Source of the DNA: Eledone cirrhosa
Lineage: Eukaryota
Length of the DNA: 31,864 nt
Assembly (NCBI GenBank): GCA_964016885.1
Contig: CAXHJY010001522.1
Location: 1-31,864 of the forward strand
Direction: 5' to 3'
Numbering within the stretch: the first letter of the stretch is position 1; each line of letters starts with the position of its first letter. The notes beneath the pieces are model-generated. The model worked only from the letters and a program-made list of their open reading frames with translations, did no database searches and was not told the origin of the DNA. Of this stretch, positions 1,658-31,864 are shown one piece after another. The translations under genes and the position numbers were made by a program.

Positions 1658-1769
1658 GGTGTAGCAGGCAGGTATGACCCCATCACTCATTATAAAACCT
1701 GGTAGAGTACATCACCTCTCCAGGTCTTAATAAAACAGACAGAGAGTGAGAAAGAGATATAGAGGAAGA

Positions 1770-2201: not shown

Positions 2202-2910
2202 CACGTCGTTGTCAACGACATATTGAGAAGAAGCCTGGACGCAGCTGGCTTCCCATCACAACTGGGGCCAACAGGTCCCGGAGATGGCAAGCGCCCCGAC
2301 GGAATCACTCTCTTCCCATTCGAAGGACGTAGGTCCCTCATCTGGGACACCACCAGCTACGACACAATCTCCGCCTACAACTTCGTTTCCAAGTCGTTTC
2401 GGTCACAAACCCCGGCATCGCAGCCCACCTCGCAGAAGAACGTAAAATAAACAAATACCGAGGATTGTCCGGCCACTTCCTCTCTGCACCAGTCAACGTC
2501 GAGACCCCAGGAGTACTTGGACCTTGTACTGCCGAGCTCCTCCAAAAGATCGGAGAGTCAGCAGCCCATCTGAGGAGGGAACACCGCGAGGTTGGGTGGT
2601 TGTTGCATTGGGTATCTCTGGCCATCGTCCGCGAGAATATTTTTGCCGTCTTATCCGTGGGGCGCAGCATTTCTGCCCTCTTGCCCTAGACTCAAAGCTC
2701 AACCACCCTCCCCTCTCTCCTGCGACACCGGACCTCTTGCCATCCCCTCTCCTTCCCGTTCTGTTTTTTCTTTCTTTCTCTCTTCGATTTAATCAACTTT
2801 CCCCTCCCCCAAATTACTGGCCTTCCACCTTTACTAGAAACCATCATTATTATTGTTATTCTTACTGTAAATAATATCATGTTTATACAGTTTTGATAAG
2901 AAATAAATTG
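2202..2910 (+). mobile_element. 3' fragment of a restriction-like-endonuclease (RLE) non-LTR retrotransposon, CRE-like, frameshifted, with putative 3' UTR
   Basis: Translation HVVVNDILRRSL...DGKRPDGITLFPFEGRRSLIWDTT, then after a frameshift near 2395 AAHLAEERKINKYRGL...VETPGVLG...WVSLAIVRENIFAVL (stop 2689). RPD..D and K..KY motifs are typical of the RLE domain; the clade call is from recall. Confidence 0.75.
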
Positions 2911-3147
2911 TTCATTACAAACTTGTTTATATAATTATTAATTCTCAAAACACACACACTCATACGTATATATATATGATAAATATTCAGGACCCCGACG
3001 GCTGAGCTGTGGCTGTTTCAACAACTATTTTGGGATTCAACAAGCTGAAATTTTTTTATAACTGATATAAAGCACTCAACAGTTTAGTGGAGTAAATACA
3101 CAATATATTAATAAATGGAAAGACAACCTTAACGGTTGGAGCTTCCT

Positions 3148-3149
<2 letters not shown>

Positions 3150-3228
<79 letters not shown>

Positions 3229-3230
3229 TA
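3150..3230. repeat. (GA)n microsatellite
   Basis: Directly visible dinucleotide run. Confidence 0.95.
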
Positions 3231-3607
3231 TCCAGTACACTCTGTAAAGTGGTCATTAGGTTAAGATTAAACTGAAATCATACCTCCATTGGCATTGGTG
3301 TATATTTTCTGTTTGAATTCATTTCATTTTTCTTGTTTTTCTTCTATTCCATCTAAATATGAAAAAAATTATACAGGTCATTTCATCCTATCAAGAGGTC
3401 AATTTAAAAATACACTGAGATAGTACCTTAAAATAATGGTCAAAGAATTGTTTTGAAATAACTTACCTCTCTCTTACTGGTCATACCTGCAAAACATATT
3501 TAGCCAATCTCTCAGACATTTAAAAAGCTTTCAGGATGTCTATAAATATATAATTATATATATATACATACATACATACATACAGAGAGAATGAGAAAGA
3601 TACATAC

Positions 3608-3647
<40 letters not shown>

Positions 3648-3726
3648 ACATACATACATACATCCCTATCTATCTATCTATCTAGGGCGGGTAAAATTCC
3701 CGATATCCATGGACAATATCTCTTCA

Positions 3727-4456
3727 GCGTTCGTTTTTGGCCTCATCCGAGGAGTAATTTGCGTTGCTCCAGCGGTAACGAACGTCTTCTCGCGTCGCCG
3801 TTGGCAAAACGAGGGTAGCTACGGCTAAACCCAAGCCCGCCGCGGCGGTGGCGACGCAACGCGAGGTCAGAGGCATGACCCGACCGGGTCCACAACGAAA
3901 AGCCAAAACCTTCGTCGCAGCAGAAAGAGTGCGCGCGTCGTCGACCCGTCGTATATCGTCGTCAAGGCGTTTCTCCTGCGTTAAAATGACGGCTATTACG
4001 ATGGACGCGTATCTACTGCTGTGACGGAAAGCGGCTAATCGTCGAGGCCGAGGAGGAAGCGGCGGCGCGAGGCGTTCGTTTTTGGCGTCAACCGAGGAGT
4101 AATTTGCGTTGCTCCAGCGGTAACGAACGTCTTCTCGCGTCGCCGTAACGCGAGGTCAGCGGCATGACCTGACCGGGTCCACGACGAAAAGCCGAAACCT
4201 TCGTCGCAGCAAGGAAGAGTGCGCGCATCGTCGCCGTCGTAGATCGCCGTCAAACGCGGTGCAGGGCAATTAGGCGTTTCTCCTGCGTTAAAATGACGGC
4301 TATTACGACGGACGCGTATCTACTGCTGTGACGGAAAGTGGCTAATCGTCGAGGCCGAGGGTCGGCGAGGAGAAGGCGGCGCGAGGCGGGAAGGCGTTCG
4401 TTTTTGGCGTCAACCGAGGAGTAATTTGCGTTGCTCCAACGGTAACGAACGTCTTC
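3727..4456. repeat. CpG-rich tandem duplication, ~322-345-bp unit, ~2.2 copies
   Basis: GCGTTCGTTTTTGGC.TCA.CCGAGGAGTAATTTGCGTTGCTCCA.CGGTAACGAACGTCTTCT starts at 3727, 4072 and 4394. Confidence 0.9.
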
Positions 4457-4594
4457 TATCATGGGTCCGGTCGGGCGACGGCGGTCTGGAAAGGCAATTC
4501 TTTTGCCGCGACGGAAGCGCAATCGAAAGGCGGATCACGAAATGCGGCTAGCCGTCGAGAAAACGAAAACCAAAGAGGTTGGGGTTAGGGTAAG

Positions 4595-4757
4595 GGCCAG
4601 GTTTAGATGCGCGATGCTGCATGGTAGTGAGACACGGGCAGCAACTGCAGAGGACATGCGACGGCTGGAGAGAAATGAAGCAAGCATGCTCCGTTGGATG
4701 TGCAATGTCAATGTGCGGGAACGACCAAGCATAGACGAGTTGAGACAGAAACTGTAG
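4595..4757 (+). mobile_element. RTE-clade LINE C-terminal fragment
   Basis: CAMLHGSETRAATAEDMRRLERNEASMLRWMCNV..RERPSIDELRQKL matches the RTE post-RT motif (LYGSETW...E..MLRW). Confidence 0.85.
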
Positions 4758-7175: not shown

Positions 7176-7206
<31 letters not shown>

Positions 7207-7655
7207 GTTAGGGTTGGGGTTGGGTTAGGGTTAGGGTTGGGTTAGGGTTATACGTTTATATCTCTCTCTCTCTGTCTCTCTCTCTACTACTAGAGAGAGA
7301 GGGGGGGGGGAAATAGAGAGGGGGGAATAGAGAGAGAGAGGGGAGAGAGAGAGAGAGAAGAGAGAGAGAGGTTAGGGTTGGGTTAGGGTTATACGTTTAT
7401 ATCTCTCTCTCTCTTTGTCTCTCTCTCTACTACTAGAGAGAGAGAGAGGGGGTGAGAGAGAGAGAGAGATGGGTTAGGGTTAGGTTAGGGTTAGGGTTGG
7501 GGTTAGGGTTGGGTTAGGGTTTGGTTAGGGTTATACGTTTATATCTCTCTCTCTTTGTCTCTCTCTACTACTAGAGAGAGAGAGGGGGGGGGGGAGAGAG
7601 AGACAGAGAGAGAGAGGGGGGATAGAGGGAGAGTGAGAGACAGGGAGAGAGACAG
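7176..7655. repeat. Composite (GA)n/(TTAGGG)n/(TC)n repeat, ~141-bp unit x3, interstitial telomeric sequence
   Basis: TTAGGG/TTGGGG runs at ~7205-7250, 7370-7390 and 7471-7532, each followed by ATACGTTTATATCTCTC...CTACTACTAGAGAG (7245, 7386, 7528). Confidence 0.9.
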
Positions 7656-7928: not shown

Positions 7929-8081
7929 GCACAAGATGAAAGTTTCAGTCTGCGTGATGATGGGCAGATCTGGAGGTTTGTCAAGGCGGGTGAAACGTGG
8001 AAGAGAGATACCAGCTGGTCTGAGTGTGATCTACCCACAATAACTGGCAATGTAAAAACTGCTACAACTCTGGGAAACTAA
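7929..8081 (+). CDS. C-terminal remnant of LINE ORF1 (AQDESFSLRDDGQIWRF...TATTLGN*)
   Basis: Open frame from the truncation point to TAA 8079-8081, directly upstream of and overlapping the ORF2 frame. Identity is inferred from position only. Confidence 0.6.
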   Translation, partial: AQDESFSLRDDGQIWRFVKAGETWKRDTSWSECDLPTITGNVKTATTLGN

Positions 8082-8137
8082 ACCAGAACAACCTGCCACC
8101 CTCTACACACCATCATAGACTGCGAGCAGGGTACAAA

Positions 8138-10903
8138 TTGTTGTCCTTAAATGCTCGCAGTTTATGCAACAAGATACATCTGTTCGAATCCTACGTCAGA
8201 AGCATCGACCCTGACTTCATCACAGTCACGGAAACATGGGCACATTCCTTACTCTGTGATGGGGTTTTCACCATTACTGGGTACAACCTTTTCCGCAAGG
8301 ACCGCATTAACCGCCGTGGTGGTGGTGTGATGGTCTACGTTCGTTCAAACTTTTCGGTAATTCCTTGCGTTGATTTGAACGAATCACAGGAAGAAGTTTT
8401 TTTCTGTGACATACGTATGACCATGTCAACACTTCTGCTTGGTGTTGTTTATCGCCCCCCAAACTACCATCAGGACACACAGCTTTGCGATATCCTCAGA
8501 GTTGCTGCCAAGAAAACAGCCACTTATGTGTTTATTGCAGGTGACTTCAATCATCCTGAGATCGATTGGGAAACCTTTCGTTGGCCACAGGGTGCAAACG
8601 ATTTCCTTGAACTAGTGCTGGACTCAAACTGGTCACAAGTAGTCACCTCTCCAACAAGAGGTGACAACACTTTGGACCTGATCTTCACCACTACTCCTGA
8701 AGTGGTTATCAGTTGTACTACTGAGGAACCTCTAGGCGACTCTGATCATGCTATGATCATTGCCAATCTGGCACTTGAGGGCAGCAACAAAAACCAGAGC
8801 CATCTCCAATCTGCTTGCTTTGATTGGAAGAGGGCGGATTGGAACTTGTACTGCACTGAGCTACAGCGCCCAAACTGGCATGAGATGTATAACTCTGGAG
8901 ATGTGAACTCTATACTCCAGAGCATCCTGGACTCAATATGGATAGCGTGTGCAGCATCAGTGCCACGGAAGCGGAAAAATAACCACCCCAAAAGTGCAAT
9001 CTGGGAAACTTCAGCAGTCCGACTTGCCAGGAAAGAACGTCGGAACGCTGAACGGGAATATAAACTGCATAGATCAGATGCCAACAGAAAAAAGCGGAAT
9101 AAATCTTCTAACCATCTCAAGCAAGTGACAAAGAAGGCAGTGCTTGAATTTGAACAGTGCATCGCAACCAATCCTGACAGTAAGGTGTTCTGGAAATATG
9201 TTCATTCAAAGCAGAGACCTCACTCTCCAGTTGGTCCTCTTCGCAATCCCCACACAAGCCAGATCACTGACGATCCCAAGGAATGCGCAGAACTCATTGC
9301 TGAGTGCTATGCAAGTATTTTTACTGTTGAAAACCAGAATGTACCATCTCCACCATCTCTAACATCAAATTCCATAACAACTATGGAATTTACACCTGCA
9401 ATGTTGCGACGTCACCTTAAGAATAAGCGCAACTATGCCTCCCCTGGTCTTGATGGTGTGACATACCTGCTTCTCAAACGTGGTGGGGATTTCCTTTTGC
9501 GCCAGCTTTCTTTTTTCTTTCAATACTGTCTCAGCAATGGTGCTACTCCGGAGCAGTGGAAAACTGCCAGTGTCATTCCCCTGTTCAAAAAGGGCAACCG
9601 CATGTCACCTGTCAACTATCGTCCAGTCAGTCTTACTAGCTGTATGGCCAAACTGATGGAATCCTGTGTCAGAGAAACACTTTGGAACTTCTGGAGCTCT
9701 CACAGCCTCATCCGGCCCTCACAGTTTGGATTTATCCCTAACTCCAGCTGCTGTGATCAGCTTATCGAGTTCCTTGAGGACATCACCCGGATCACTGACA
9801 GCGGCTCATGGGTGGATGTTGTTTACCTTGACTTTGCTAAGGCTTTTAATTCTGTGCCACACAAAAGACTTATGGCAAAACTCTCTGCAATGGGTGTGAG
9901 GGATGATCTTTTCGACTGGCTGAAATCCTTCATTCTCAGCCGAAGGAAAGTAGTCACGGTTCTAGGACAGCATTCTTCACCATATGAGATGTCATCTGGT
10001 GTACCACAGGGATCTGTTCTTGGTCCTCTTTTGTTTGTGGCATATATTAATGACATAGATGCCAACTTACAGAATGCCACGGTACTAAAATATGCAGATG
10101 ACATCAAGCTGTACCTTGAAATCAAAAGGACTGATCCTGAAATTTACAACTCTTTCCTAAAATCAGACCTGGACACAATGCAGCAATGGATCACAGACTG
10201 GCAACTGAAGCTGGCTGTGGACAAGTGTACCACCATGCATTTTGGAAGGAAAAATCCAGCGTCCACATACTCCCTCCACAACACTGACATCAAAAAGTCC
10301 TCTTGTGAACGTGACCTGGGCATTACTGTCGGCAACGATTTGCGTTGGACAAAGCATGTCTCTAAGATTGTCAAGAAGGCCGAGGGTGTCTTGGCATCAC
10401 TCAGCAAGACCTTTGTTAGCCGCTCTCCAGCCATCTATTTAAAACTGTATACAGCTATGGTGCGACCACACTTGGAATTCGCATCATCAGTCTGGAACCC
10501 CTATCTTGCTCGGAACATTGACCTCCTGGAAGCTGTTCAGAGACGTGCAACCAAGCGCATACCCTCCATCAGACACCTACCATACTCTGAACGCCTTGCT
10601 TCCCTGGGCATGGATTCATTGAAGCTCCGACATCTGGCAGTGGACTTGGTGAATACCCACAAAGTTTTTAACCATCTCGCCAACTGCAACCCTGAGCGCC
10701 TCTTTGATCTCCATGTGTCTAACACACGTGGACATGCCTACAAGATAAGAAAACAGCACAGCTCCCATGACTTTCGCAGACATTTTTTCACGCTCAGAGT
10801 TGCTGAAACATGGAACAAACTGCCTGCGTCAATTGTTAGCTGCCGAGACACTGCATCCTTTAAGACACTCATGCTTCCCGAAATACGCCAAAACTACACC
10901 TGA
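8138..10903 (+). CDS. LINE ORF2p: apurinic-like endonuclease + reverse transcriptase (frame is open from 8030; no ATG before the APE domain)
   Basis: APE motifs LNARS, VTETW, YRPP, AGDFN, LDL, SDH; RT motifs NYRPVSLTS, QFGF, YLDFAKAF, GVPQGSVLGPLLF, YADD; CR1-type C-terminus RGH.YK....RRHFFTLRV..WNKLP. 921 codons without stops. Confidence 0.95.
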   Translation: MLSLNARSLCNKIHLFESYVRSIDPDFITVTETWAHSLLCDGVFTITGYNLFRKDRINRRGGGVMVYVRSNFSVIPCVDLNESQEEVFFCDIRMTMSTLLLGVVYRPPNYHQDTQLCDILRVAAKKTATYVFIAGDFNHPEIDWETFRWPQGANDFLELVLDSNWSQVVTSPTRGDNTLDLIFTTTPEVVISCTTEEPLGDSDHAMIIANLALEGSNKNQSHLQSACFDWKRADWNLYCTELQRPNWHEMYNSGDVNSILQSILDSIWIACAASVPRKRKNNHPKSAIWETSAVRLARKERRNAEREYKLHRSDANRKKRNKSSNHLKQVTKKAVLEFEQCIATNPDSKVFWKYVHSKQRPHSPVGPLRNPHTSQITDDPKECAELIAECYASIFTVENQNVPSPPSLTSNSITTMEFTPAMLRRHLKNKRNYASPGLDGVTYLLLKRGGDFLLRQLSFFFQYCLSNGATPEQWKTASVIPLFKKGNRMSPVNYRPVSLTSCMAKLMESCVRETLWNFWSSHSLIRPSQFGFIPNSSCCDQLIEFLEDITRITDSGSWVDVVYLDFAKAFNSVPHKRLMAKLSAMGVRDDLFDWLKSFILSRRKVVTVLGQHSSPYEMSSGVPQGSVLGPLLFVAYINDIDANLQNATVLKYADDIKLYLEIKRTDPEIYNSFLKSDLDTMQQWITDWQLKLAVDKCTTMHFGRKNPASTYSLHNTDIKKSSCERDLGITVGNDLRWTKHVSKIVKKAEGVLASLSKTFVSRSPAIYLKLYTAMVRPHLEFASSVWNPYLARNIDLLEAVQRRATKRIPSIRHLPYSERLASLGMDSLKLRHLAVDLVNTHKVFNHLANCNPERLFDLHVSNTRGHAYKIRKQHSSHDFRRHFFTLRVAETWNKLPASIVSCRDTASFKTLMLPEIRQNYT

Positions 10904-15005: not shown

Positions 15006-15263
15006 AATACACCCAGTACACTCTGTAATGATTACTTCTAAGATAAAATACCAAGATAGATACTTTTAGAACCCCCCACCCTGGTGAACTCTAAGGTCAT
15101 CCAACCTTTCAAACGTGTAGCACGATATTAACGCTGACTTTTCTTCCTCTCCCTTTCTATTTGACCGTGAGGGTAGTAGCACACTGAAAGCTTTACCCCC
15201 CCTCACCAACTGGCCTCAAGTAGACTGAATAGCCAACACTTTAGGGCGACCGGCTGAAGTGGA

Positions 15264-15322
15264 AGATGGCGGCCCGCGTTCCGAAATACGTTATCCCGTG
15301 CAACGCCGGGTACCACTGCTAG
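15264..15322 (+). mobile_element. Helitron-type 3' terminus
   Basis: Hairpin CCCGTGCAACGCCGGG (15295-15310), 8-nt spacer, CTAG (15319-15322), followed by T of a TA run. The 5' end was not identified. Confidence 0.7.
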
Positions 15323-18193: not shown

Positions 18194-18412
18194 TCAGAGC
18201 AAACATCACGGACGCTCTATCTCAAAATTATTTTTGAAAAGCATTAGAAATGCGCAACCGGTAAAACTTAAAACCAAAACTTAATACTAACCAATACTAT
18301 TACTAATTATCACTTATTCCTAATTAAACTATTTTTCACTGTGAACAATTTGTCACAATTTTCTATTCCGTTTACCAATATATATATATATATATACATA
18401 CACATATATATA

Positions 18413-18470
18413 CTAGCAGTGGTACCCGGCGTTGCACAGGATAAGGTATTTTGGAAAGCGGGCCGTCAAC
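18413..18470 (-). mobile_element. Helitron-type 3' terminus abutting the 1584-bp array
   Basis: Reverse complement GTTGACGGCCCGCTTTCCAAAATACCTTATCCTGTGCAACGCCGGGTACCACTGCTAG(T) is homologous over ~58 bp to 15264-15322 and ends in a TA run. Confidence 0.7.
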
Positions 18471-18547
18471 AGAACTAATCATGGAAAAGTGCATGCCTGG
18501 ACAATATGTAAAGAAATATGTCAAGAAAATAAACCGAATACTCTGTC

Positions 18548-21500
18548 CGTCGTCGGATCGATGTGTAATTACAGGTACATGTGCGGACACTCATTGGCTG
18601 TGCGTGGTATGAATTTCAGCAAGATATCTCCGTAACATCAAGAGTTGTCGCTGTGGAGGCACACCTAGTCAAACGTAAACAAAATCGCGAAGCGTAAACG
18701 CTCCAGACCTTGTTTACGTTTGACTAGGTGTGCCTCCACAGCCATAACTCTTGATGTTACGGAGATATCTTAGTGAAATGCATACCACGCACAGCCAATG
18801 AGTGTCCGCACATGTACTTCTAATTACACATCGATCCGTCAACATCCGGCCGGCCCACGATCGACGCACAGGGCCGAATGGCCCGTTTTCAGTGAATTTT
18901 CACCGGAATCGATCTGTAATTACTGGTACATGTGCGGACACACATTTGCTGTGTGTGGTGTGATTTTCAAGAAAAACTGCCCATGCTAAATGAGGAAGCT
19001 GAAGTCCGCCGGCGAATGGTGTGCTTCGAAGAAAACTAATTCGAAAATGACCGTTTGCAGGCGGAGTAACCTTTTCGATCGTGGGCCAGCCGCCCGTGGT
19101 GGGATCCATCTGTAATTACTGGTACATGTGCGGACACTCATTGGCTGTGTGTGGTGTGATTTTCGAGAAAAACTGCCCATGCTAAATGAATTCCGCCGGC
19201 GAATGGTGTGCTTCGGAGTAACCTTTTCGATCGTGGGCCGGCCGCCCGTGGTGGGATCCATCTGTAATTACTGGTACATGTGCAGACACTCATTGGGAGT
19301 GTGTGGTGTGATTTTCAGAAAGATATCTCCGATATATCAATAGTTAGCTAACCGAGTGAATTCCATTTTAGACTTTCAGATCGACCTGAAACCATACCTT
19401 TCAACCCGATCTGATAGCCAAAATTCTTTGGCGAAATCAGATTTAAAACTGGGTTTTTCGGAATTTCTTTATGAAAATCACACCACACATAGACAAGGGC
19501 CTTGCGAACACGATGCACATATGTCCGAATCGATCCGACAAGATCCGGCCGGCCCACGATCGAAATGGCAATCTCCGCCGGCGATCCGTTATTTTCCGAG
19601 AAGATTTCGACACAAATTTTTTTCACCACACATGCACAATGGCCTTCCGAACATGGTCCACAAATTTCCGATCGATCCGGCAAGATCCGGCCGGACCAGG
19701 ACCGAAAAGGTGATTCCGCCGGCAAATAGTCATTTTCGAATTAGTTTTCTTCGAAGCACACCATTCGCCGGCGGACTTCAGCTTCCTCATTTAGCATGGG
19801 CAGTCTTTCTCGAAAATCACACCACACACAGCAAATGTGTGTCCGCACATGTACCAGTAATTACAGATGTATCCCACCACGGGCGGCTGGCCCACGATCG
19901 AAAAGGTTACTCCGCCTGCAAACGGTCATTTTCGAATTAGTTTTCTTCGAAGCACACCATTCGCCGGCGGACTTCAGCTTCCTCATTTAGCATGGGCAGT
20001 TTTTCGTGAAAATCACACCACACACAGCAAATGTGTGTCCGCACATGTACCAGTAATTACAGATCGATTCCGGTGAAAATTCACTGAAAACGGGCCATCC
20101 GGCCCTGTGCGTCGATCGTGGGCCGGCCGGATGTTGACGGATCGATGTGTAATTAGAAGTACATGTGCGGACACTCATTGGCTGTGCGTGGTATGCATTT
20201 CAGCAAGATATCTCCGTAACATCAAGAGTTGTGGCTGTGGAGGCACACCTAGTCAAACGTAAACAAAATCGCGAAGCGTATACGCTCCAGAGCTTGTTTA
20301 CGTTTGACTAGGTGTGCCTCCACAGCCATAACTCTTGATGTTACGGAGATATCTTGCTGAAATGCATACCACGCACAGCCAATGAGTGTCCGCACATGTA
20401 CTTCTAATTACACATCGATCCGTCAACATCCGGCCGGCCCACGATCGACGCACAGGGCAGAATGGCCCGTTTTCAGTGAATTTTCACCGGAATCGATCTG
20501 TAATTACTGGTACATGTGCGGACACACATTTGCTGTGTGTGGTGTGATTTTCGAGAAAAACTGCCCATGCTAAATGAGGAAGCTGAAGTCCGCCGGCGAA
20601 TGGTGTGCTTCGAAGAAAACTAATTCGAAAATGACCGTTTGCAGGCGGAGTAACCTTTTCGATCGTGGGCCAGCCGCCCGTGGTGGGATCCATCTGTAAT
20701 TACTGGTACATGTGCGGACACTCATTGGCTGTGTGTGGTGTGATTTTCGAGAAAAACTGCCCATGCTAAATGAATTCCGCCGGCGAATGGTGTGCTTCGG
20801 AGTAACCTTTTCGATCGTGGGCCGGCCGCCCGTGGTGGGATCCATCTGTAATTACTGGTACATGTGCAGACACTCATTGGGAGTGTGTGGTGTGATTTTC
20901 AGAAAGATATCTCCGATATATCAATAGTTAGCTAACCGAGTGAATTCCATTTTAGACTTTCAGATCGACCTGAAACCATACCTTTCAACCCGATCTGATA
21001 GCCAAAATTCTTTGGCGAAATCAGATTTAAAACTGGGTTTTTCGGAATTTCTTTATGAAAATCACACCACACATAGACAAGGGCCTTGCGAACACGATGC
21101 ACATATGTCCGAATCGATCCGACAAGATCCGGCCGGCCCACGATCGAAATGGCAATCTCCGCCGGCGATCCGTTATTTTCCGAGAAGATTTCGACACAAA
21201 TTTTTTTCACCACACATGCACAATGGCCTTCCGAACATGGTCCACAAATTTCCGATCGATCCGGCAAGATCCGGCCGGACCAGGACCGAAAAGGTGATTC
21301 CGCCGGCAAATAGTCATTTTCGAATTAGTTTTCTTCGAAGCACACCATTCGCCGGCGGACTTCAGCTTCCTCATTTAGCATGGGCAGTCTTTCTCGAAAA
21401 TCACACCACACACAGCAAATGTGTGTCCGCACATGTACCAGTAATTACAGATGTATCCCACCACGGGCGGCTGGCCCACGATCGAAAAGGTTACTCCGCC

Positions 21501-24500
21501 TGCAAACGGTCATTTTCGAATTAGTTTTCTTCGAAGCACACCATTCGCCGGCGGACTTCAGCTTCCTCATTTAGCATGGGCAGTTTTTCGTGAAAATCAC
21601 ACCACACACAGCAAATGTGTGTCCGCACATGTACCAGTAATTACAGATCGATTCCGGTGAAAATTCACTGAAAACGGGCCATCCGGCCCTGTGCGTCGAT
21701 CGTGGGCCGGCCGGATGTTGACGGATCGATGTGTAATTAGAGGTACATGTGCGGACACTCATTGGCTGTGCGTGGAATGCATTTCAGCAAGATATCTCCG
21801 TAACATCAAGAGTTGTGGCTGTGGAGGCACACCTAGTCAAACGTAAACAAAATCGCGAAGCGTATACGCTCCAGAGCTTGTTTACGTTTGACTAGGTGTG
21901 CCTCCACAGCCATAACTCTTGATGTTACGGAGATATCTTGCTGAAATGCATACCACGCACAGCCAATGAGTGTCCGCACATGTACTTCTAATTACACATC
22001 GATCCGTCAACATCCGGCCGGCCCACGATCGACGCACAGGGCAGAATGGCCCGTTTTCAGTGAATTTTCACCGGAATCGATCTGTAATTACTGGTACATG
22101 TGCGGACACACATTTGCTGTGTGTGGTGTGATTTTCGAGAAAAACTGCCCATGCTAAATGAGGAAGCTGAAGTCCGCCGGCGAATGGTGTGCTTCGAAGA
22201 AAACTAATTCGAAAATGACCGTTTGCAGGCGGAGTAACCTTTTCGATCGTGGGCCAGCCGCCCGTGGTGGGATCCATCTGTAATTACTGGTACATGTGCG
22301 GACACTCATTGGCTGTGTGTGGTGTGATTTTCGAGAAAAACTGCCCATGCTAAATGAATTCCGCCGGCGAATGGTTTGCTTCGGAGTAACCTTTTCGATC
22401 GTGGGCCGGCCGCCCGTGGTGGGATCCATCTGTAATTACTGGTACATGTGCAGACACTCATTGGGAGTGTGTGGTGTGATTTTCAGAAAGATATCTCCGA
22501 TATATCAATAGTTAGCTAACCGAGTGAATTCCATTTTAGACTTTCAGATCGACCTGAAACCATACCTTTCAACCCGATCTGATAGCCAAAATTCTTTGGC
22601 GAAATCAGATTTAAAACTGGGTTTTTCGGAATTTCTTTATGAAAATCACACCACACATAGACAAGGGCCTTGCGAACACGATGCACATATGTCCGAATCG
22701 ATCCGACAAGATCCGGCCGGCCCACGATCGAAATGGCAATCTCCGCCGGCGATCCGTTATTTTCCGAGAAGATTTCGACACAAATTCTTTTCACCACACA
22801 TGCACAATGGCCTTCCGAACATGGTCCACAAATTTCCGATCGATCCGGCAAGATCCGGCCGGACCAGGACCGAAAAGGTGATTCCGCCGGCAAATAGTCA
22901 TTTTCGAATTAGTTTTCTTCGAAGCACACCATTCGCCGGCGGACTTCAGCTTCCTCATTTAGCATGGGCAGTCTTTCTCGAAAATCACACCACACACAGC
23001 AAATGTGTGTCCGCACATGTACCAGTAATTACAGATGTATCCCACCACGGGCGGCTGGCCCACGATCGAAAAGGTTACTCCGCCTGCAAACGGTCATTTT
23101 CGAATTAGTTTTCTTCGAAGCACACCATTCGCCGGCGGACTTCAGCTTCCTCATTTAGCATGGGCAGTTTTTCGTGAAAATCACACCACACACAGCAAAT
23201 GTGTGTCCGCACATGTACCAGTAATTACAGATCGATTCCGGTGAAAATTCACTGAAAACGGGCCATCCGGCCCTGTGCGTCGATCGTGGGCCGGCCGGAT
23301 GTTGACGGATCGATGTGTAATTAGAAGTACATGTGCGGACACTCATTGGCTGTGCGTGGTATGCATTTCAGCAAGATATCTCCGTAACATCAAGAGTTGT
23401 GGCTGTGGAGGCACACCTAGTCAAACGTAAACAAAATCGCGAAGCGTATACGCTCCAGAGCTTGTTTACGTTTGACTAGGTGTGCCTCCACAGCCATAAC
23501 TCTTGATGTTACGGAGATATCTTGCTGAAATGCATACCACGCACAGCCAATGAGTGTCCGCACATGTACTTCTAATTACACATCGATCCGTCAACATCCG
23601 GCCGGCCCACGATCGACGCACAGGGCAGAATGGCCCGTTTTCAGTGAATTTTCACCGGAATCGATCTGTAATTACTGGTACATGTGCGGACACACATTTG
23701 CTGTGTGTGGTGTGATTTTCGAGAAAAACTGCCCATGCTAAATGAGGAAGCTGAAGTCCGCCGGCGAATGGTGTGCTTCGAAGAAAACTAATTCGAAAAT
23801 GACCGTTTGCAGGCGGAGTAACCTTTTCGATCGTGGGCCAGCCGCCCGTGGTGGGATCCATCTGTAATTACTGGTACATGTGCGGACACTCATTGGCTGT
23901 GTGTGGTGTGATTTTCGAGAAAAACTGCCCATGCTAAATGAATTCCGCCGGCGAATGGTGTGCTTCGGAGTAACCTTTTCGATCGTGGGCCGGCCGCCCG
24001 TGGTGGGATCCATCTGTAATTACTGGTACATGTGCAGACACTCATTGGGAGTGTGTGGTGTGATTTTCAGAAAGATATCTCCGATATATCAATAGTTAGC
24101 TAACCGAGTGAATTCCATTTTAGACTTTCAGATCGACCTGAAACCATACCTTTCAACCCGATCTGATAGCCAAAATTCTTTGGCGAAATCAGATTTAAAA
24201 CTGGGTTTTTCGGAATTTCTTTATGAAAATCACACCACACATAGACAAGGGCCTTGCGAACACGATGCACATATGTCCGAATCGATCCGACAAGATCCGG
24301 CCGGCCCACGATCGAAATGGCAATCTCCGCCGGCGATCCGTTATTTTCCGAGAAGATTTCGACACAAATTTTTTTCACCACACATGCACAATGGCCTTCC
24401 GAACATGGTCCACAAATTTCCGATCGATCCGGCAAGATCCGGCCGGACCAGGACCGAAAAGGTGATTCCGCCGGCAAATAGTCATTTTCGAATTAGTTTT

Positions 24501-27134
24501 CTTCGAAGCACACCATTCGCCGGCGGACTTCAGCTTCCTCATTTAGCATGGGCAGTCTTTCTCGAAAATCACACCACACACAGCAAATGTGTGTCCGCAC
24601 ATGTACCAGTAATTACAGATGTATCCCACCACGGGCGGCTGGCCCACGATCGAAAAGGTTACTCCGCCTGCAAACGGTCATTTTCGAATTAGTTTTCTTC
24701 GAAGCACACCATTCGCCGGCGGACTTCAGCTTCCTCATTTAGCATGGGCAGTTTTTCGTGAAAATCACACCACACACAGCAAATGTGTGTCCGCACATGT
24801 ACCAGTAATTACAGATCGATTCCGGTGAAAATTCACTGAAAACGGGCCATCCGGCCCTGTGCGTCGATCGTGGGCCGGCCGGATGTTGACGGATCGATGT
24901 GTAATTAGAGGTACATGTGCGGACACTCATTGGCTGTGCGTGGAATGCATTTCAGCAAGATATCTCCGTAACATCAAGAGTTGTGGCTGTGGAGGCACAC
25001 CTAGTCAAACGTAAACAAAATCGCGAAGCGTATACGCTCCAGAGCTTGTTTACGTTTGACTAGGTGTGCCTCCACAGCCATAACTCTTGATGTTACGGAG
25101 ATATCTTGCTGAAATGCATACCACGCACAGCCAATGAGTGTCCGCACATGTACTTCTAATTACACATCGATCCGTCAACATCCGGCCGGCCCACGATCGA
25201 CGCACAGGGCAGAATGGCCCGTTTTCAGTGAATTTTCACCGGAATCGATCTGTAATTACTGGTACATGTGCGGACACACATTTGCTGTGTGTGGTGTGAT
25301 TTTCGAGAAAAACTGCCCATGCTAAATGAGGAAGCTGAAGTCCGCCGGCGAATGGTGTGCTTCGAAGAAAACTAATTCGAAAATGACCGTTTGCAGGCGG
25401 AGTAACCTTTTCGATCGTGGGCCAGCCGCCCGTGGTGGGATCCATCTGTAATTACTGGTACATGTGCGGACACTCATTGGCTGTGTGTGGTGTGATTTTC
25501 GAGAAAAACTGCCCATGCTAAATGAATTCCGCCGGCGAATGGTTTGCTTCGGAGTAACCTTTTCGATCGTGGGCCGGCCGCCCGTGGTGGGATCCATCTG
25601 TAATTACTGGTACATGTGCAGACACTCATTGGGAGTGTGTGGTGTGATTTTCAGAAAGATATCTCCGATATATCAATAGTTAGCTAACCGAGTGAATTCC
25701 ATTTTAGACTTTCAGATCGACCTGAAACCATACCTTTCAACCCGATCTGATAGCCAAAATTCTTTGGCGAAATCAGATTTAAAACTGGGTTTTTCGGAAT
25801 TTCTTTATGAAAATCACACCACACATAGACAAGGGCCTTGCGAACACGATGCACATATGTCCGAATCGATCCGACAAGATCCGGCCGGCCCACGATCGAA
25901 ATGGCAATCTCCGCCGGCGATCCGTTATTTTCCGAGAAGATTTCGACACAAATTCTTTTCACCACACATGCACAATGGCCTTCCGAACATGGTCCACAAA
26001 TTTCCGATCGATCCGGCAAGATCCGGCCGGACCAGGACCGAAAAGATGATTCCGCCGGCAAATAGTCATTTTCGAATTAGTTTTCTTCGAAGCACACCAT
26101 TCGCCGGCGGACTTCAGCTTCCTCATTTAGCATGGGCAGTCTTTCTCGAAAATCACACCACACACAGCAAATGTGTGTCCGCACATGTACCAGTAATTAC
26201 AGATGGATCCCACCACGGGCGGCTGGCCCACGATCGAAAAGGTTACCCCGCCTGCAAACGGTCATTTTCGAATTAGTTTTCTTCGAAGCACACCATTCGC
26301 CGGCGGACTTCAGCTTCCTCATTTAGCATGGGCAGTTCTTCTTGAAAATCACACCACACACAGCAAATGTATGTCCGCACATGTACCAGTAATTACAGAT
26401 GGATCCCACCACGGGCGGCTGGCCCACGATCGAAAAGGTTACTCCGCCTGCAAACGGTCATTTTCGAATTAGTTTTCTTCGAAGCACACCATTCGCCGGC
26501 GGACTTCAGCTTCCTCATTTAGCATGGGCAGTTTTTCTTGAAAATCACACCACACACAGCAAATGTGTCTCCGCACATGTACCAGTAATTACAGATCGAT
26601 TCCGGTGAAAATTCACTGAAAACGGGCCATCCGGCCCTGTGCGTCGATCGTGGGCCGGCCGGATGTTGACGGATCGATGTGTAATTAGAAGTACATGTGC
26701 GGACACTCATTGGCTGTGCGCGGTATGCATTTCAGCAAGATATCTCCGTAACATCAAGAGTTATGGCTGTGGAGGCACACCTAGTCAAACGTAAACAAAA
26801 TCGCGAAGCGTAAACGCTCCAGACCTTGTTTACGTTTGACTAGGTGTGCCTCCACAGCCATAACTCTTGATGTTACGGAGATATCTTGCTGAAATGCATA
26901 CCACGCACAGCCAATGAGTGTCCGCACATGTACTTCTAATTACACATCGATCCGTCAACATCCGGCCGGCCCACGATCGACGCACAGGGCCGGATGGCCC
27001 GTTTTCAGTGAATTTTCACCGGAATCGATCTGTAATTACTGGTACATGTGCGGACACACATTTGCTGTGTGTGGTGTGATTTTCAAGAAAAACTGCCCAT
27101 GCTAAATGAGGAAGCTGAAGTCCGGCGGCGAATG
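18548..27134. repeat. Macrosatellite of 1584-bp CpG-rich units, each with an ~1-kb palindrome (~5.4 units, 6 palindrome centres)
   Basis: Identical ORFs recur at 18798, 20382, 21966, 23550, 25134 (+1584) and 26914 (+1780). Mirror ORF pairs such as 19987..20178(-)/20382..20573(+) place symmetry centres at ~18696, 20280, 21864, 23448, 25032, 26812. Confidence 0.97.
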
Positions 27135-27350
27135 TAACTTAACCGCAACCTAACTTAACCCCAACTTAACTTAACCCCAACCTAACTTAACCCCAACCTA
27201 ACTTAACCCCAACTTAACTTAACCCCAACTTGACTTAACCCCAACTTAACTTAACCTCAACTTAACTTAACCCCAGCTTAACTTAACCCCCACTTAACTT
27301 AACCCCAACTCAACTTAACCTCAACTTAACTTAGCCCCAACTTAACTTAG
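27135..27350. repeat. 16-bp telomere-like minisatellite (CCCCAACTTAACTTAA)n, ~13 copies
   Basis: Directly visible; the reverse strand is (TTAAGTTAAGTTGGGG)n with TTAGG variants. Confidence 0.9.
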
Positions 27351-27557
27351 GATATTTAAAAAAAAAACAACCTAAGCATATATACGAACGGCGCTGCGGC
27401 TGATAAAAAAAGGAACACGCGCGTTTGTCCCGTCTCCGCCTGTTAGCCGTGCCTGGGACGATGAAAACCACCGCCGAGCGGACGACGGGCCCGGTCGAGA
27501 GAAGCGCTGTTTTCGGAAACCCGCTTCGAAAGCGAACCGGGAATGGTTCGTTTTCCG

Positions 27558-27617
27558 ACCGACCCCGTAAGGATGAAAGGCAAAGTTAACCTCCTCGGCG
27601 TGATTTGAACTCAGACC
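27558..27617 (-). mobile_element. SINE fragment
   Basis: CGACCCCGTAAGGATGAAAGGCAAAGTTAACCTC..CGGCGTGATTTGAACTCAGACC is nearly identical to 13400-13454. Confidence 0.85.
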
Positions 27618-27750
27618 CTAACAACTGATGCAGGTAGTTTGTTCCATGGAGGTTTTAAAAGATGCAGTGTCTCGACAGCTAACAACTGTTGCAGGTAGCT
27701 TGTTCCATGGAGGTTTTAAAGGATGCAGTGTCTCGACAGCTAAGAACTGA
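27618..27750 (-). repeat. 61-bp tandem repeat derived from the CR1 ORF2 3' end
   Basis: Reverse complement CATGGAACAAACTACCTGCATCAGTTGTTAGCTGTCGAGACACTGCATCTTTTAAAAC matches 10809-10868; unit starts at 27618, 27679, 27740. Confidence 0.85.
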
Positions 27751-27904: not shown

Positions 27905-28035
27905 CTGGTGAACCCGCTATATCGCGGTTCACTTTTCGCGGATATTTCTTTGGAACGTATCTAATTTCCTATCGCGGTAATCCTCGCCACATCGCGGATT
28001 ATTCGTTAGAACATATCTAGTTACTTATCGCGGTA
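27905..28035 (+). mobile_element. Probable pogo/Tigger-type terminal region
   Basis: GTGAACCCGCTATATCGCGGTTCACTTTTCGCGG with further iterated ATCGCGG motifs resembles pogo/Tigger TIRs as recalled; no partner TIR seen. Confidence 0.5.
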
Positions 28036-29149
28036 CGTCTGAATAAAAAGTGTTTAAAATTTAAACTTATTAAATAAGTTTCAATGTTATTAAAGTGTAT
28101 ATCGTAAGGAAGGAAGGAACGAAGGAAGGAAGGAAGGAAGGGAGGGAGGGAGGGACATCTTAAGGCTTTAATTATAAACAAATGTTTATATTATTCATTC
28201 CATTACTGTCTTGCTGATTGTGTTTTGATCTAATCTACTACAAAACCTTCATAGATTGACGGGAGATTTGCAGTGTATTACCAAGTGGCTACGGTGCAAC
28301 CCATTTAAACTGATTATTGAAAATATAAGTGGCCCTTAAAAGGGCCGGTGTTGAAACAATTCATGGTTATCAAATTAAGAAAACAAATTTGTATCACACA
28401 CAGACACACACACAAAACAGATTGATTACTTTCTCGCGATCGAAGCGGGAAGGCGTGGACGAATAAAGGAACGTTTGCCGGGTTCGAGGCGGAAGACGGA
28501 AGGCGTCGTGTATACACGCCGTCTTGCCGCCTGTCTTTCCCGGGAGCGACTCGCAAAAGTATGGGTCGGCGGCAGAACCGCCTAGACGGCGGATTGGATT
28601 TCTTTCCGCAGTCTACACACAAAACTTACTTGGAAGACGGATAGGCGGCTTGTATCACATACAGACACACACACAAGCTGTGTACACGTAAAACAACGAA
28701 CCGATCGATCGGCGGCGTCTAACTTTTCTTTTCTTCTCCCTTTCTGGCGCCACGTGGGCGGATTGTATCGTTCGTCAGAAAACTCTCAATAGATTGCAGT
28801 GTGGTAGCTGCTCTACTAAGCACGTAACTCCGAACAATTTGATCACTTTAGTCTCTATCTCTTTCAGGAAATCGAATGGACGACGACGACGACGAATCGT
28901 CGTAGTCGTCACAGAATGGCATTTCCGCTGACGCTGCCGCCGTCGGCGAACGGACGGCAATCGCCAAACTAAGGCATGGGCCTTAAGAAGGTCGAGACGC
29001 TTGTCGAAAAACAACTCGGGTCCGGCTAGGGTTCCGGCTTAGAGGAGGCGTTCAGCCGTTATCGCTCAGAGGCAGCCTAGCAAACCGTTGCTCTGATCCC
29101 GCGATACTCTCGTACTCGACGGGATAGCCGTAGCCGAGTTGATGTCGAT

Positions 29150-31864
29150 TCGAAAATTCTGTCAATTCCTTTAAGTTTCTGTTTTGCAACAATCATAGTA
29201 AAGCCCGGAACCAACTATCCACCGGGCATGGATCGCAACTTCCAGACAAACGTTCTTTCGAATACGAATGTCTCGTTCGAATATTTGCTACTACCACCGA
29301 GATATTTTTCTTTCGCATACGAATGTCTCGTTCGAATATTTGCTACTACCACCGAGATCTTTTTTTCGCATACGAATATTTGCTACTACCACCGAGATAT
29401 TTTTTTTTCGACTCACTGACTCACCAGTTTCCAGACAAACGTTCTTTCGGATACGAATGTCTCGTTCGTTATCGGAATCAAGCAGACGGATCGCCCCCTC
29501 TCCGGAATCGCAAATTCTGTCAATCCCTTTAAGTTTCTGTTTTGCAACAATCATAGTAAAACCCGGAACCAACTATCCACCGAGCATGGATCGCCACTTC
29601 CAGACAAACGTTCTTTCGCATACGAATGTCTCGTTCGAATATTTGCTACTACCACCGACAAACGTTCTTTCGCATACGAATGTCTCGTTCGAATATTTGC
29701 TACTACCACCGAGATATTTTTTTTTCGACTCACTGACTCACCAGTTTCCAGACAAACGTTCTTTCGGATACGAATGTCTCGTTCGTTATCGGAATCAAGC
29801 AGACGGATCGCCCCCTCTCCGGAATCGCAAATTCTGTCAATCCCTTTAAGTTTCTGTTTTGCAACAATCATAGTAAAACCCGGAACCAACTATCCACCGG
29901 GCATGGATCGCCACTTCCAGACAAACGTTCTTTCGCATACGAATGTCTCGTTCGAATATTTGCTACTACCACCGAGATATTTTTCTTTCGCATACGAATG
30001 TCTCGTTCGAATATTTGCTACTACCACCGAGATATTTTTTTTTCGACTCACTGACTCACCAGTTTCCAGACAAACGTTCTTTCGGATACGAATGTCTCGT
30101 TCGTTATCGGAATCAAGCAGACGGATCGCCCCCTCTCCGGAATCGCAAATTCTGTCAATCCCTTTAAGTTTCTGTTTTGCAACAATCATAGTAAAACCCG
30201 GAACCAACTATCCACCGAGCATGGATCGCCACTTCCAGACAAACGTTCTTTCGCATACGAATGTCTCGTTCGAATATTTGCTACTACCACCGAGATATTT
30301 TTTTTTCGACTCACTGACTCACCAGTTTCCAGACAAACGTTCTTTCGGATACGAATGTCTCGTTCGTTATCGGAATCAAGCAGACGGATCGCCCCCTCTC
30401 CGGAATGGCAAATTCTGTCAATCCCTTTAAGTTTCTGTTTTGCAACAATCATAGTAAAACCCGGAACCAACTATCCACCGGGCATGGATCGCCACTTCCA
30501 GACAAACGTTCTTTCGCATACGAATGTCTCGTTCGAATATTTGCTACTACCACCGACAAACGTTCTTTCGCATACGAATGTCTCGTTCGAATATTTGCTA
30601 CTACCACCGAGATATTTTTTTTTTCGACTCACTGACTCACCAGTTTCCAGACAAACGTTCTTTCGGATACGAATGTCTCGTTCGTTATCGGAATCAAGCA
30701 GACGGATCGCCCCCTCTCCGGAATGGCAAATTCTGTCAATCCCTTTAAGTTTCTGTTTTGCAACAATCATAGTAAAACCCGGAACCAACTATCCACCGGG
30801 CATGGATCGCCACTTCCAGACAAACGTTCTTTCGCATACGAATGTCTCGTTCGAATATTTGCTACTACCACCGACAAACGTTCTTTCGCATACGAATGTC
30901 TCGTTCGAATATTTGCTACTACCACCGACAAACGTTCTTTCGCATACGAATGTCTCGTTCGAATATTTGCTACTACCACCGAGATATTTTTTTTTCGACT
31001 CACTGACTCACCAGTTTCCAGACAAACGTTCTTTCGGATACGAATGTCTCGTTCGTTATCGGAATCAAGCAGACGGATCGCCCCCTCTCCGGAATCGCAA
31101 ATTCTGTCAATCCCTTTAAGTTTCTGTTTTGCAACAATCATAGTAAAACCCGGAACCAACTATCCACCGGGCATGGATCGCCACTTCCAGACAAACGTTC
31201 TTTCGCATACGAATGTCTCGTTCGAATATTTGCTACTACCACCGACAAACGTTCTTTCGCATACGAATGTCTCGTTCGAATATTTGCTACTACCACCGAG
31301 ATATTTTTTTTTCGACTCACTGACTCACCAGTTTCCAGACAAACGTTCTTTCGGATACGAATGTCTCGTTCGTTATCGGAATCAAGCAGACGGATCGCCC
31401 CCTCTCCGGAATCGCAAATTCTGTCAATCCCTTTAAGTTTCTGTTTTGCAACAATCATAGTAAAACCCGGAACCAACTATCCACCGGGCATGGATCGCCA
31501 CTTCCAGACAAACGTTCTTTCGCATACGAATGTCTCGTTCGAATATTTGCTACTACCACCGACAAACGTTCTTTCGCATACGAATGTCTCGTTCGAATAT
31601 TTGCTACTACCACCGAGATATTTTTTTTTCGACTCACTGACTCACCAGTTTCCAGACAAACGTTCTTTCGGATACGAATGTCTCGTTCGTTATCGGAATC
31701 AAGCAGACGGATCGCCCCCTCTCCGTAATCGCAAATTCTGTCAATCCCTTTAAGTTTCTGTTTTGCAACAATCATAGTAAAACCCGGAACCAACTATCCA
31801 CCGGGCATGGATCGCCACTTCCAGACAAACGTTCTTTCGCATACGAATGTCTCGTTCGAATATT
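29150..31864. repeat. Satellite with 263+54n-bp units (mostly 317-318 bp), >8 copies, runs off the window
   Basis: AAATTCTGTCAAT.CCTTTAAG at ~29154, 29512, 29829, 30147, 30410, 30728, 31099, 31416, 31733. Internal 54-bp subunit GACAAACGTTCTTTCGCATACGAATGTCTCGTTCGAATATTTGCTACTACCACC occurs in 1-3 copies per unit. Confidence 0.97.

What the first reader, a model, noticed from the sequence alone, without database searches (positions are those of the whole stretch)
18413..27134. Helitron 3' end fused to an 8.6-kb tandem array of kilobase palindromes
Seen: six symmetry centres spaced 1584 bp apart (last 1780). In internal units, near-perfect arms of ~480 bp (e.g. ~19787-20266 vs ~20294-20773) flank an asymmetric ~27-nt spacer that always keeps the same orientation. 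The array starts only ~80 bp inside a hairpin+CTAG terminus (minus strand, 18413-18470) that is homologous to a free terminus at 15264-15322. Established: Helitrons end in hairpin+CTRR, replicate by rolling circle and can seed satellites; long palindromes are usually unstable. Inference: a non-autonomous rolling-circle element carries or generated a fold-back macrosatellite able to form cruciforms or long dsRNA. I do not recognise this family.
Basis: partly seen in the sequence, partly recalled or inferred. Interest (0 to 1): 0.8.

Follow-up and report, generated by a model that had tools for sequence, protein, structure and literature searches.

The report
Helitron carrying tandem kilobase palindromes
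An 8.6-kb run of six mirror-image DNA repeats (arms up to 480 bases, about 98% matched) is joined to the end of a rolling-circle transposon in an animal genome; the join recurs at high depth in sequencing data, so this is likely a young transposon family whose inner repeat folded back on itself, and it would form unusually long hairpins if made single-stranded or transcribed.

Summary
There are six centres (18696-26812), spaced 1584 x4 then 1780. Internal arms are 480 bp with 9-11 mismatches around a 27-nt spacer. A hairpin+CTAG|T end lies 79 bp away.

Artefact is unlikely. Arm mismatches recur unit after unit. Contigs of public runs hold the spacer (X1, X5), an inversion junction with the window's 69-nt gap (X5, X9) and the terminus-linker-arm join (X1, depth 2,693 against 4-9 for flank-bearing contigs).

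Corrections and additions:
- The unit is built of ~196-bp monomers and has a second, older centre (~72%).
- Units alternate A/B.
- The 'free' end at 15322 has its own body.
- In the three low-depth runs a monomer lacking the fold-back is the commonest form.
- Hits under 18 organism labels look like trace carry-over.

Best reading (0.6): a non-autonomous canonical Helitron whose central repeat folded back twice and was then amplified in tandem. Each half is known: Helitron-borne arrays in oyster, ~470-bp dyad monomers in Tribolium. Ten paper searches did not show the combination. The 5' end, mobility with the array, and transcription are untested. New variant of a known kind.

The parts
18380..18412 (.). 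(TA)n-rich target tract; A at 18412 gives CTAG|T on the minus strand
   Evidence: sequence
18413..18468 (-). Helitron (HLE1-type) 3' box: hairpin 18425-18440, 8 nt, CTAG 18416-18413
   Evidence: summed contig depth about 150,000-310,000 over 18413-18460 in X1, falling to 7,800 at 18473-18484
18469..18547 (-). 79-bp AT-rich linker, unrelated to the array unit
   Evidence: no similarity to the unit above shuffles; bridged with box and arm by X1 contig 5
18548..27134 (.). 8,587-bp array: about 5.4 units of 1584 bp, GC 48.5%, CpG o/e 1.15 (flank 0.23); 8-9 monomer-derived segments per unit in both orientations
18548..18844 (.). centre 1 (18696), 134-bp arms; left arm is the family-specific, more monomer-like copy; terminal-type spacer
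   Evidence: X1 contig 5 has no substitution over 18427-18602
19787..20773 (.). centre 2 (20280): 480-bp arms, 27-nt spacer 20267-20293; repeated at 21864, 23448, 25032 (internal-type spacer)
20420..20495 (.). divergent inversion junction between a minus and a plus monomer, 69 nt apart (mirrored in each arm)
   Evidence: same geometry inside single contigs of X5 and X9
20496..21452 (.). second, older fold-back centre near 20980 (+/-1584n), arms about 72% alike with indels
26024..27134 (.). last unit with one extra 196-bp monomer (1780 spacing) and centre 6 (26812); terminal-type variants shared with unit 1; ends at position 115 of a monomer
27135..27349 (.). 16-bp minisatellite, 13.4 copies, abutting the array; likely the 5'-side microsatellite module
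   Evidence: position as in oyster elements; membership inferred
27350..27559 (-). possible left module, GC/CpG-rich, cut by a SINE-like piece at 27560; candidate A|TC starts at 27352, 27403, 27461; membership unproven
15240..15322 (+). second copy of the 3' box (15267-15322) with a different body upstream, followed by (TA)n

Best explanation
This is likely a young non-autonomous canonical Helitron whose central ~196-bp tandem repeat likely folded back on itself twice, giving a 1584-bp unit with an old (~72%) and a young (~98%) mirror centre, and that unit was then likely copied head-to-tail inside the element. Shown: the anatomy (3' box, linker, array, 16-bp minisatellite), two centres of different age, an A/B dimer, and a multi-copy box-linker-arm join. 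Inferred steps: (1) an ancestral element carried direct monomers behind its 3' box, as oyster elements do. (2) Fold-back synthesis, plausibly on the single-stranded intermediate of Helitron replication, copied monomers in reverse; the older event left the centre near 20980, the younger the centre with the 27-nt spacer. (3) The finished unit was amplified as a direct repeat, by unequal exchange or by rolling-circle copying of a circle lacking the 3' terminator. This keeps the spacer orientation and the same arm mismatches in each unit. A late two-unit duplication gave the 3168-bp dimer. (4) A RepHel protein in trans would spread the element; not tested. It most likely has no host function; hairpins and double-stranded RNA would be by-products.
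For: End: hairpin, 8 nt, CTAG, then T, in 2 of 2 copies in the window, with unrelated bodies. This fits the HLE1 definition in PMC11417382. Join: X1 contig 5 covers 18427-18602 with 0 substitutions and 1 gap at depth 2,693, while three listed X1 terminus contigs that differ from the window by 10-11 letters, two of them with long flanks, have depth 3.6-9.35. X12 contig 11 has the same box-linker sequence (18427-18559; only 12 letters into the arm). The terminal arm differs from four plain monomers at 8-9 of 64 positions, the other six arms at 11-13. Direct copying: units 1-5 differ by 0-9 of 1101 bases; lag-3168 copies differ at 3 of 3923; arm mismatches at offsets 49, 442, 447 and 494 recur in all four internal palindromes. 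Unfolded relative: the deepest listed contig of X5, X9 and X12 aligns to the arm up to 18683 and runs on into ordinary monomer sequence instead of the spacer (depth 37.7, 219.9, 94.1; spacer-bearing contigs 4.79 in X5 and 11.7 in X9). Layout left box - microsatellite - array - right box is that of oyster non-autonomous Helitrons (PMC7492417, PMC8268682). One 3' end with many internal repeats is the Xiong et al. pattern as reviewed in PMC12628747.
Against: No 5' TC end was fixed; three candidates lie beyond the minisatellite and none was testable. The terminal hairpin at the array has a T-G pair and is no more stable than shuffles. The box family is much deeper (about 150,000-310,000 summed) than the join (2,693; 7,800 summed at 18473-18484), so the array-linked form is a minority. 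Units 1 and 6 share four variants absent from units 2-5, and the internal type is the one X1 shows; this points to exchange with arrays elsewhere rather than purely local growth. The 27-nt spacer has no source elsewhere in the window (score 17; shuffles mean 20) and is not the monomer's continuation, so a simple fold-back leaves it unexplained. X1 may be the window's source; contig depth is not a copy number (tool warning). No RepHel partner could be sought.
Confidence: 0.6

Rival explanations
1. Satellite first: the dyad unit arose in a stand-alone satellite of the ~200-bp family, as in Tribolium. A piece became joined to a Helitron end by recombination or read-through capture, and the join spread by duplication rather than transposition.
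For: Monomer depth far exceeds join depth (summed up to 990,000 versus 2,693). Internal units are a different haplotype from the ends. One-sided Helitron/array hybrids are described in oyster (PMC8268682, PMC12628747). No 5' end was found.
Against: The terminal arm is a fixed, more monomer-like variant shared with an X1 contig at depth 2,693, not a clipped internal arm. A minisatellite sits where oyster elements have one. The array here is only 8.6 kb, among dispersed repeats.
Confidence: 0.23
2. Ongoing rolling-hairpin-like copying: the Helitron's HUH enzyme acts on a self-complementary single-stranded circle, so palindromes are made and renewed as part of replication.
For: Constant spacer orientation fits copying of a dumbbell circle (inference). 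Centre 6 has nearly perfect arms (3 of 308) and lacks several mismatches of the internal units. Helitrons make single-stranded circles (PMC4778049). CpG is not depleted.
Against: Arms are imperfect at the same sites unit after unit, and the second centre is only 72% symmetric with indels; hairpin-primed synthesis would erase both. No flipped spacer in 6 of 6 centres, and none listed.
Confidence: 0.08
3. A tandem array of Foldback/MITE-type elements with ~500-bp modular inverted ends (Tetris- or Galileo-like), separated by a 27-nt spacer and inserted beside a Helitron end.
For: Cut at the young centres, a unit has long inverted ends made of subrepeats that decay inwards, as in foldback elements (Tetris, Rehavkus; passage).
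Against: The array ends 148 bp left of centre 1 and 322 bp right of centre 6, not at the would-be ends. The related monomer runs straight through the would-be end at 18683 in three runs.
Confidence: 0.06
4. Sequencing or assembly artefact (fold-back reads, or a mis-expanded repeat).
For: The two dimer copies are nearly identical (3 of 3923), so the unit count could be an assembly error. No long read was seen. Spacer contigs hold 29-30 arm letters a side, just under the tool's 31-letter rule.
Against: Arms carry fixed recurring mismatches, there are two spacer variants, and there is an old second centre. Spacer contigs occur in X1 (depth 12,902) and X5 (0 differences). The inversion junction with the window's 69-nt gap lies inside single contigs of X5 and X9, with 129-153 and 34 letters a side.
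Confidence: 0.03

Closest known systems
Non-autonomous Helitrons/Helentrons with central tandem arrays in Crassostrea gigas (Cg_HINE, Helitron-N_Cgi; PMC7492417, PMC8268682, passages seen)
   Same: short conserved 3' box with hairpin, microsatellite on the 5' side, central array of ~200-bp-scale monomers, shared boxes on different bodies
   Different: Cg_HINE arrays keep one orientation to their flanks 'without exception' and have subterminal inverted repeats. Here the end is CTAG|T with no subTIR found, and monomers are folded into a 1584-bp dyad unit. Arrays 'oriented in different directions' are mentioned for shuffled oyster loci (PMC12628747), but not regular dyads.
Dyad-symmetric satellites of Tribolium: T. 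brevicornis 1061-bp monomer (~470-bp inverted subunits), T. madens TmSat2/MAD2 (~300-bp), T. audax TAUD2 (~700-bp), T. freemani macro-dyads (PMC13081366; 10.1101/2024.12.02.626372, passages and one section seen; original papers not seen)
   Same: tandem unit made of long inverted subunits that are built from shorter subrepeats; conserved inversion points with short loops (9-27 bp in T. freemani, 27 nt here)
   Different: Those are major (peri)centromeric satellites; 'Helitron' occurs 0 times in the T. madens paper. Here a short array is joined to a Helitron 3' end. Its 480-bp arms at ~98% match the length that paper calls the most prominent intra-monomer dyad reported.
Canonical Helitron (HLE1), e.g. 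Helraiser (PMC11417382, PMC4778049, passages seen)
   Same: 3' hairpin + CTAG followed by T, AT-rich target
   Different: no RepHel ORF in the array; 5' TC not fixed; carries six long internal palindromes although a hairpin acts as the stop signal in Helraiser
Foldback transposons with modular inverted ends (Tetris, Rehavkus; seen only as cited passages)
   Same: long inverted arms built from tandem subrepeats
   Different: array boundaries do not coincide with arm ends; Helitron-type end

Membership tests
Canonical Helitron (HLE1), non-autonomous | 3' short hairpin followed by CTRR | tested here: met
   hairpin 18425-18440, 8 nt, CTAG; same at 15322; hairpin energy not above shuffles
Canonical Helitron (HLE1), non-autonomous | insertion between A and T | tested here: inconclusive
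   T follows CTAG in 2 of 2 ends; 5' side unknown
Canonical Helitron (HLE1), non-autonomous | 5' TC start | tested here: inconclusive
   five A|TC sites in 27135-27620, three outside the SINE-like piece; no second copy to decide
Canonical Helitron (HLE1), non-autonomous | dispersed copies with sharp ends and unrelated flanks | tested here: inconclusive
   3' box is multi-copy with different bodies, and the join is multi-copy; flanks of array-linked copies not examined
Canonical Helitron (HLE1), non-autonomous | autonomous RepHel partner sharing the ends | not testable with these tools
   no genome held; terminus pattern absent from viral, metagenome and prokaryote collections
Helentron / HINE (HLE2) | subterminal inverted repeats of 11-17 bp at both ends | tested here: not met
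   longest inverted match between 27354-27562 and linker+box is 7 nt exact, 8 nt with one mismatch; 15 shuffles give 8-11; holds only if that stretch is the left module
Helentron / HINE (HLE2) | T|T insertion, no CTRR end | tested here: not met
   both ends read CTAG then (TA)n
Helentron / HINE (HLE2) | microsatellite then central tandem array between two boxes | tested here: inconclusive
   minisatellite, array and right box present in that order; left box unproven
Foldback / MITE tandem array | element boundaries at the inverted ends, with target-site duplication | tested here: not met
   array ends at offsets -148 and +322 from the centres
Tribolium-type dyad satellite | tandem monomer of two long inverted subunits | tested here: met
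   987 of 1584 bp (62%) in ~98% arms plus spacer, the rest in ~72% arms
Tribolium-type dyad satellite | long stand-alone (peri)centromeric arrays | not testable with these tools
   no genome or chromatin data; the array here is 8.6 kb

The most novel reading that the evidence does not exclude
An active Helitron subfamily transposes with a cargo of five or six kilobase palindromes. Its single-stranded intermediate snaps back into long hairpins that neither stop the enzyme nor get cut, and fold-back on that intermediate is what creates dyad satellite units. The family has seeded hundreds of loci and over a thousand hairpin centres that would supply long double-stranded RNA for editing or silencing wherever they are read through.
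Probability: 0.25. Interest if true: 0.75.

Novelty: new variant of a known kind. Interest (0 to 1): 0.52.

Why it matters
Long, nearly perfect inverted repeats with a short spacer are regarded as unstable, and a 2026 paper calls ~470-bp dyad monomers rare and the longest reported (PMC13081366). Here arms of that length sit in tandem behind a Helitron end, with old and young inversion points, an unfolded relative and diagnostic variants in one family. That makes two open questions testable in one assembly. How do dyad-symmetric satellites arise? Can a transposon that moves through single-stranded DNA and stops at a hairpin carry large hairpins? If the host is a coleoid cephalopod (my recall from SINE-like motifs, not confirmed by any search), the family is also a candidate source of long double-stranded RNA in animals known for heavy A-to-I editing.

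Tried and rejected
- Own-genome search and file: none held.
- Expression: no RNA holder listed; this is no evidence either way.
- Cross-species conservation: 20 of 24 rows hold part of the stretch (18 organism labels, 17 studies; 9 rows at half or more). I laid 4 of the 20. X5, X9 and X12 gave 6, 6 and 11 contigs against 1070 in X1, with the same variants and about 1/1,000 to 1/16,000 of X1's depth. Four sister runs (X21-X24) list 0.00, which the tool says is no proof of absence. I read this as likely trace carry-over, or diet or environmental DNA, and do not claim conservation.
- Holes in cover in X5, X9 and X12 are not used.
- Pattern scans: the monomer core gave 0 matches in viral, metagenome and prokaryote collections; the terminus also 0.
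- RNA gene or rRNA origin of the unit: no Rfam match at gathering score; no tRNA.
- Coding: five stop-to-stop frames of 80 aa or more in 18400-20400, none searched against protein libraries; they look like chance frames of a GC-rich repeat.
- Heat-shock-element arrays as in C. elegans Helitrons (recalled): no three-pentamer site in a unit.
- SubTIRs: not found. A fold at 27440-27562 is marginal (z about -2).
- Source of the spacer: none in the window.
- Host lineage: the LINE ORF2 search gave no informative organism name among 120 listed of 419 hits, whose best are unnamed; an RTE fragment found nothing.
- Earlier findings: five look-ups, nothing relevant.
- Literature: ten searches showed no paper on this combination. 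The library lacks most subscription papers, Repbase and Dfam. The O. vulgaris repeat paper (PMC13282606; parts 1-2 of 3 read, supplement searched) lists 84 Helitron and 80 satellite families; 'palindrom' occurs 0 times in the supplement and I saw no such description in the parts read. Its consensus library is on Zenodo and was not seen, so the family may exist there unnamed. bioRxiv supplements were closed.


Full report
SETTING. The window is eukaryotic and repeat-rich: microsatellites, minisatellites, LINE pieces including one intact 957-aa ORF2 frame, and SINE-like pieces. No genome is held. SINE-like motifs near 17720, 27560 and 27850 resemble octopus repeats as I recall them. No call confirmed the lineage, so it stays a guess.

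OBSERVATION. A symmetry scan finds six centres at 18696, 20280, 21864, 23448, 25032 and 26812 (0.95-0.99; next best 0.62), spaced 1584 four times and then 1780. Internal arms are 480 bp with 9 or 11 mismatches around a 27-nt spacer of constant orientation. The end palindromes are truncated to 134 and 308 bp. The longest perfect stems are 135-151 bp in centres 2-6. As RNA, 960 of 988 bases of one palindrome pair. The array spans 18548-27134. A 56-bp box at 18413-18468 (minus strand) matches 15267-15322 and ends hairpin - 8 nt - CTAG, then T and a TA tract, in both copies. The hairpin is weak and not above shuffles. The call of a Helitron end therefore rests on geometry, the CTAG|T boundary, and the box being multi-copy on different bodies, read against the HLE1 definition (PMC11417382, passages).

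The unit is made of 8-9 segments of a ~196-bp monomer family. Their orientation from a young centre is: minus, then three plus, then three or four minus, then plus. Each unit thus has four switch points: the young convergent centre, two divergent junctions, and an old convergent centre near 20980 whose arms are 72% alike over ~995 aligned columns. The 1780 spacing is one extra monomer. Direct copies are almost identical (0-9 differences in 1101) and alternate A/B; copies 3168 apart differ at 3 of 3923. Units 1 and 6 share four right-side variants (offsets 1, 12, 179, 273) absent from units 2-5. The arm next to the terminus differs from four plain monomers at 8-9 of 64 sites, the six other arms at 11-13. 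Beyond the array lie a 16-bp minisatellite (13.4 copies) and 210 bp of CpG-rich DNA cut by a SINE-like piece. No 5' end or subTIR could be fixed. The array keeps its CpGs (o/e 1.15 against 0.23 in the flank), as fits a young or unmethylated repeat (inference).

OUTSIDE EVIDENCE. Twenty of 24 listed runs hold words of 18413-20280. I laid four on 18413-18750 (contigs only, likeness 85; 30 rows shown of about 1,096).
(1) Join: X1 contig 5 spans 18427-18602 with no substitution at depth 2,693, bridging both box-linker and linker-arm by more than 31 letters. Three listed terminus contigs in X1 that differ from the window by 10-11 letters have depth 3.6-9.35. Taken as single-locus depth, that gives very roughly 290-750 joins. 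The tool warns that depth is no copy number, and X1 may be the window's source.
(2) Centre: X1 contig 8 (depth 12,902, internal-type spacer) and X5 contig 22 (terminal type, 0 differences) hold spacer plus 29-30 arm letters a side. That is just short of the tool's 31-letter rule and is what a 31-mer graph should give at a hairpin (inference). The same arithmetic gives 1,400-3,600 centres, and 1.7-4.8 centres per join.
(3) X5 contig 19 and X9 contig 25 each contain a minus and a plus monomer piece 69 letters apart, the window's divergent junction.
(4) The deepest listed contig in X5, X9 and X12 follows the arm to 18683 with 16-17 differences and then continues into ordinary monomer sequence, not the spacer. 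It is 8- and 19-fold deeper than the spacer-bearing contigs in X5 and X9, and the same variants are abundant in X1. An unfolded relative therefore exists and looks commoner than the palindrome.
(5) Loose ends at 18465 in X1 and X5 equal window 15240-15269: the 15322 end belongs to a sister family with its own body.
(6) X5, X9 and X12 show the same variants at 1/1,000-1/16,000 of X1's depth, which I read as trace DNA, not conservation across species.

MECHANISM. Shown: Helitron-type 3' end, multi-copy join, two inversion ages, direct amplification of the finished unit. Inferred: a Helitron with direct central monomers (oyster pattern; PMC7492417 and PMC8268682, passages) underwent two fold-back events. 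Helitrons peel off one strand and form circles (PMC4778049, passages), which gives the opportunity; stem-loop turn-back synthesis is cited for MITEs (passage). Tandem growth by unequal exchange, or by rolling-circle copying after loss of the 3' terminator (Xiong et al., as reviewed in PMC12628747), explains the constant spacer direction and the recurring mismatches. Inverted structures also promote rolling-circle amplification in yeast (PMC6007334, abstract only). Against a pure in-place story: the 5' end is unknown, the internal haplotype differs from the ends, the spacer has no known source, and flanks of other copies were not seen. The main rival (0.23) is a stand-alone dyad satellite joined once to a Helitron end. 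Ongoing hairpin-primed replication (0.08) is disfavoured because it would erase fixed arm mismatches. A foldback array (0.06) is disfavoured because the array does not end at arm ends. Artefact (0.03) could touch only the unit count.

COMPARISON. It works like a satellite-bearing non-autonomous Helitron. One defining HLE1 feature is met, three are inconclusive, one is untestable, and none failed, so I file it as a probable HLE1. It fails the Helentron tests. Helitron-linked arrays are also known in nematodes (PMC4595182, PMC13404089; passages); the palindromes named in those passages are short (10-13 bases in PMC4595182; arms from 4 bp with loops up to 4 in PMC13404089). Long dyad monomers are known from Tribolium. 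T. brevicornis (1061 bp, ~470-bp inverted segments) is called the most prominent case to date, and macro-dyads are said to be documented only in that genus (PMC13081366, passages; 10.1101/2024.12.02.626372, passages and section 18). Oyster arrays keep one orientation to their flanks. Ten searches showed no report of regular kilobase dyads inside a Helitron. An O. vulgaris annotation reports 8 recently active Helitron families and 80 satellite families without such a description (PMC13282606, parts 1-2 of 3 and supplement search); its sequence library was not visible.

VERDICT. Real, high-copy and young; a new combination of two known kinds. No function is shown. Interest 0.52; 0.75 if the element is shown to transpose with its hairpins (probability 0.25).

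Noticed in passing
window 28761-29143 (-): Degenerate 3' domain of eukaryotic large-subunit rRNA (Rfam RF02543, 61.6 bits, gathering score 50). The conserved loop motif is altered, but many stem positions differ from consensus and still pair; CpG o/e 1.46 over 28380-29146.
   Followed up: partly
window 29147-31864: A 317-bp satellite with 54-bp subrepeats abuts the rRNA-like piece. It contains a 20-nt stretch that aligns to a conserved LSU motif and a stretch I recall as SSU-like, which Rfam did not confirm. It may be a satellite built from scrambled rRNA fragments.
   Followed up: partly
window 28307-28351 (-): Histone 3' stem-loop above Rfam's gathering score (36.6 versus 34), with no histone-like frame seen upstream by eye, about 400 bp downstream of the rRNA-like piece.
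   Followed up: partly
window 3682-4600 (-): A third CTAG-ended element with a small hairpin, next to a 4-bp microsatellite, with GC- and CpG-rich direct internal repeats of about 320 bp: probably another Helitron family with ordinary head-to-tail repeats.
   Followed up: partly
window 8030-10903 (+): Open 957-aa endonuclease-reverse transcriptase frame; nearest relatives 61% (full length) and 83% (partial), unnamed. Likely a young LINE.
   Followed up: partly
window 7176-7650: Compound repeat of AG tracts and GGGTTA-like tracts duplicated 2-3 times, loosely similar (75-82%) to the 16-bp minisatellite at 27135-27349.
   Followed up: no
window 27905-28100: Segment that looks like the end of a Tigger/pogo-type MITE (recalled, no call).
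   Followed up: no
runs X4-X20: A very high-copy repeat of one organism shows up under 17 other organism labels; in the three laid it has the same variants at about 0.01-0.1% of the depth. It could serve as a marker of cross-run contamination.
   Followed up: partly
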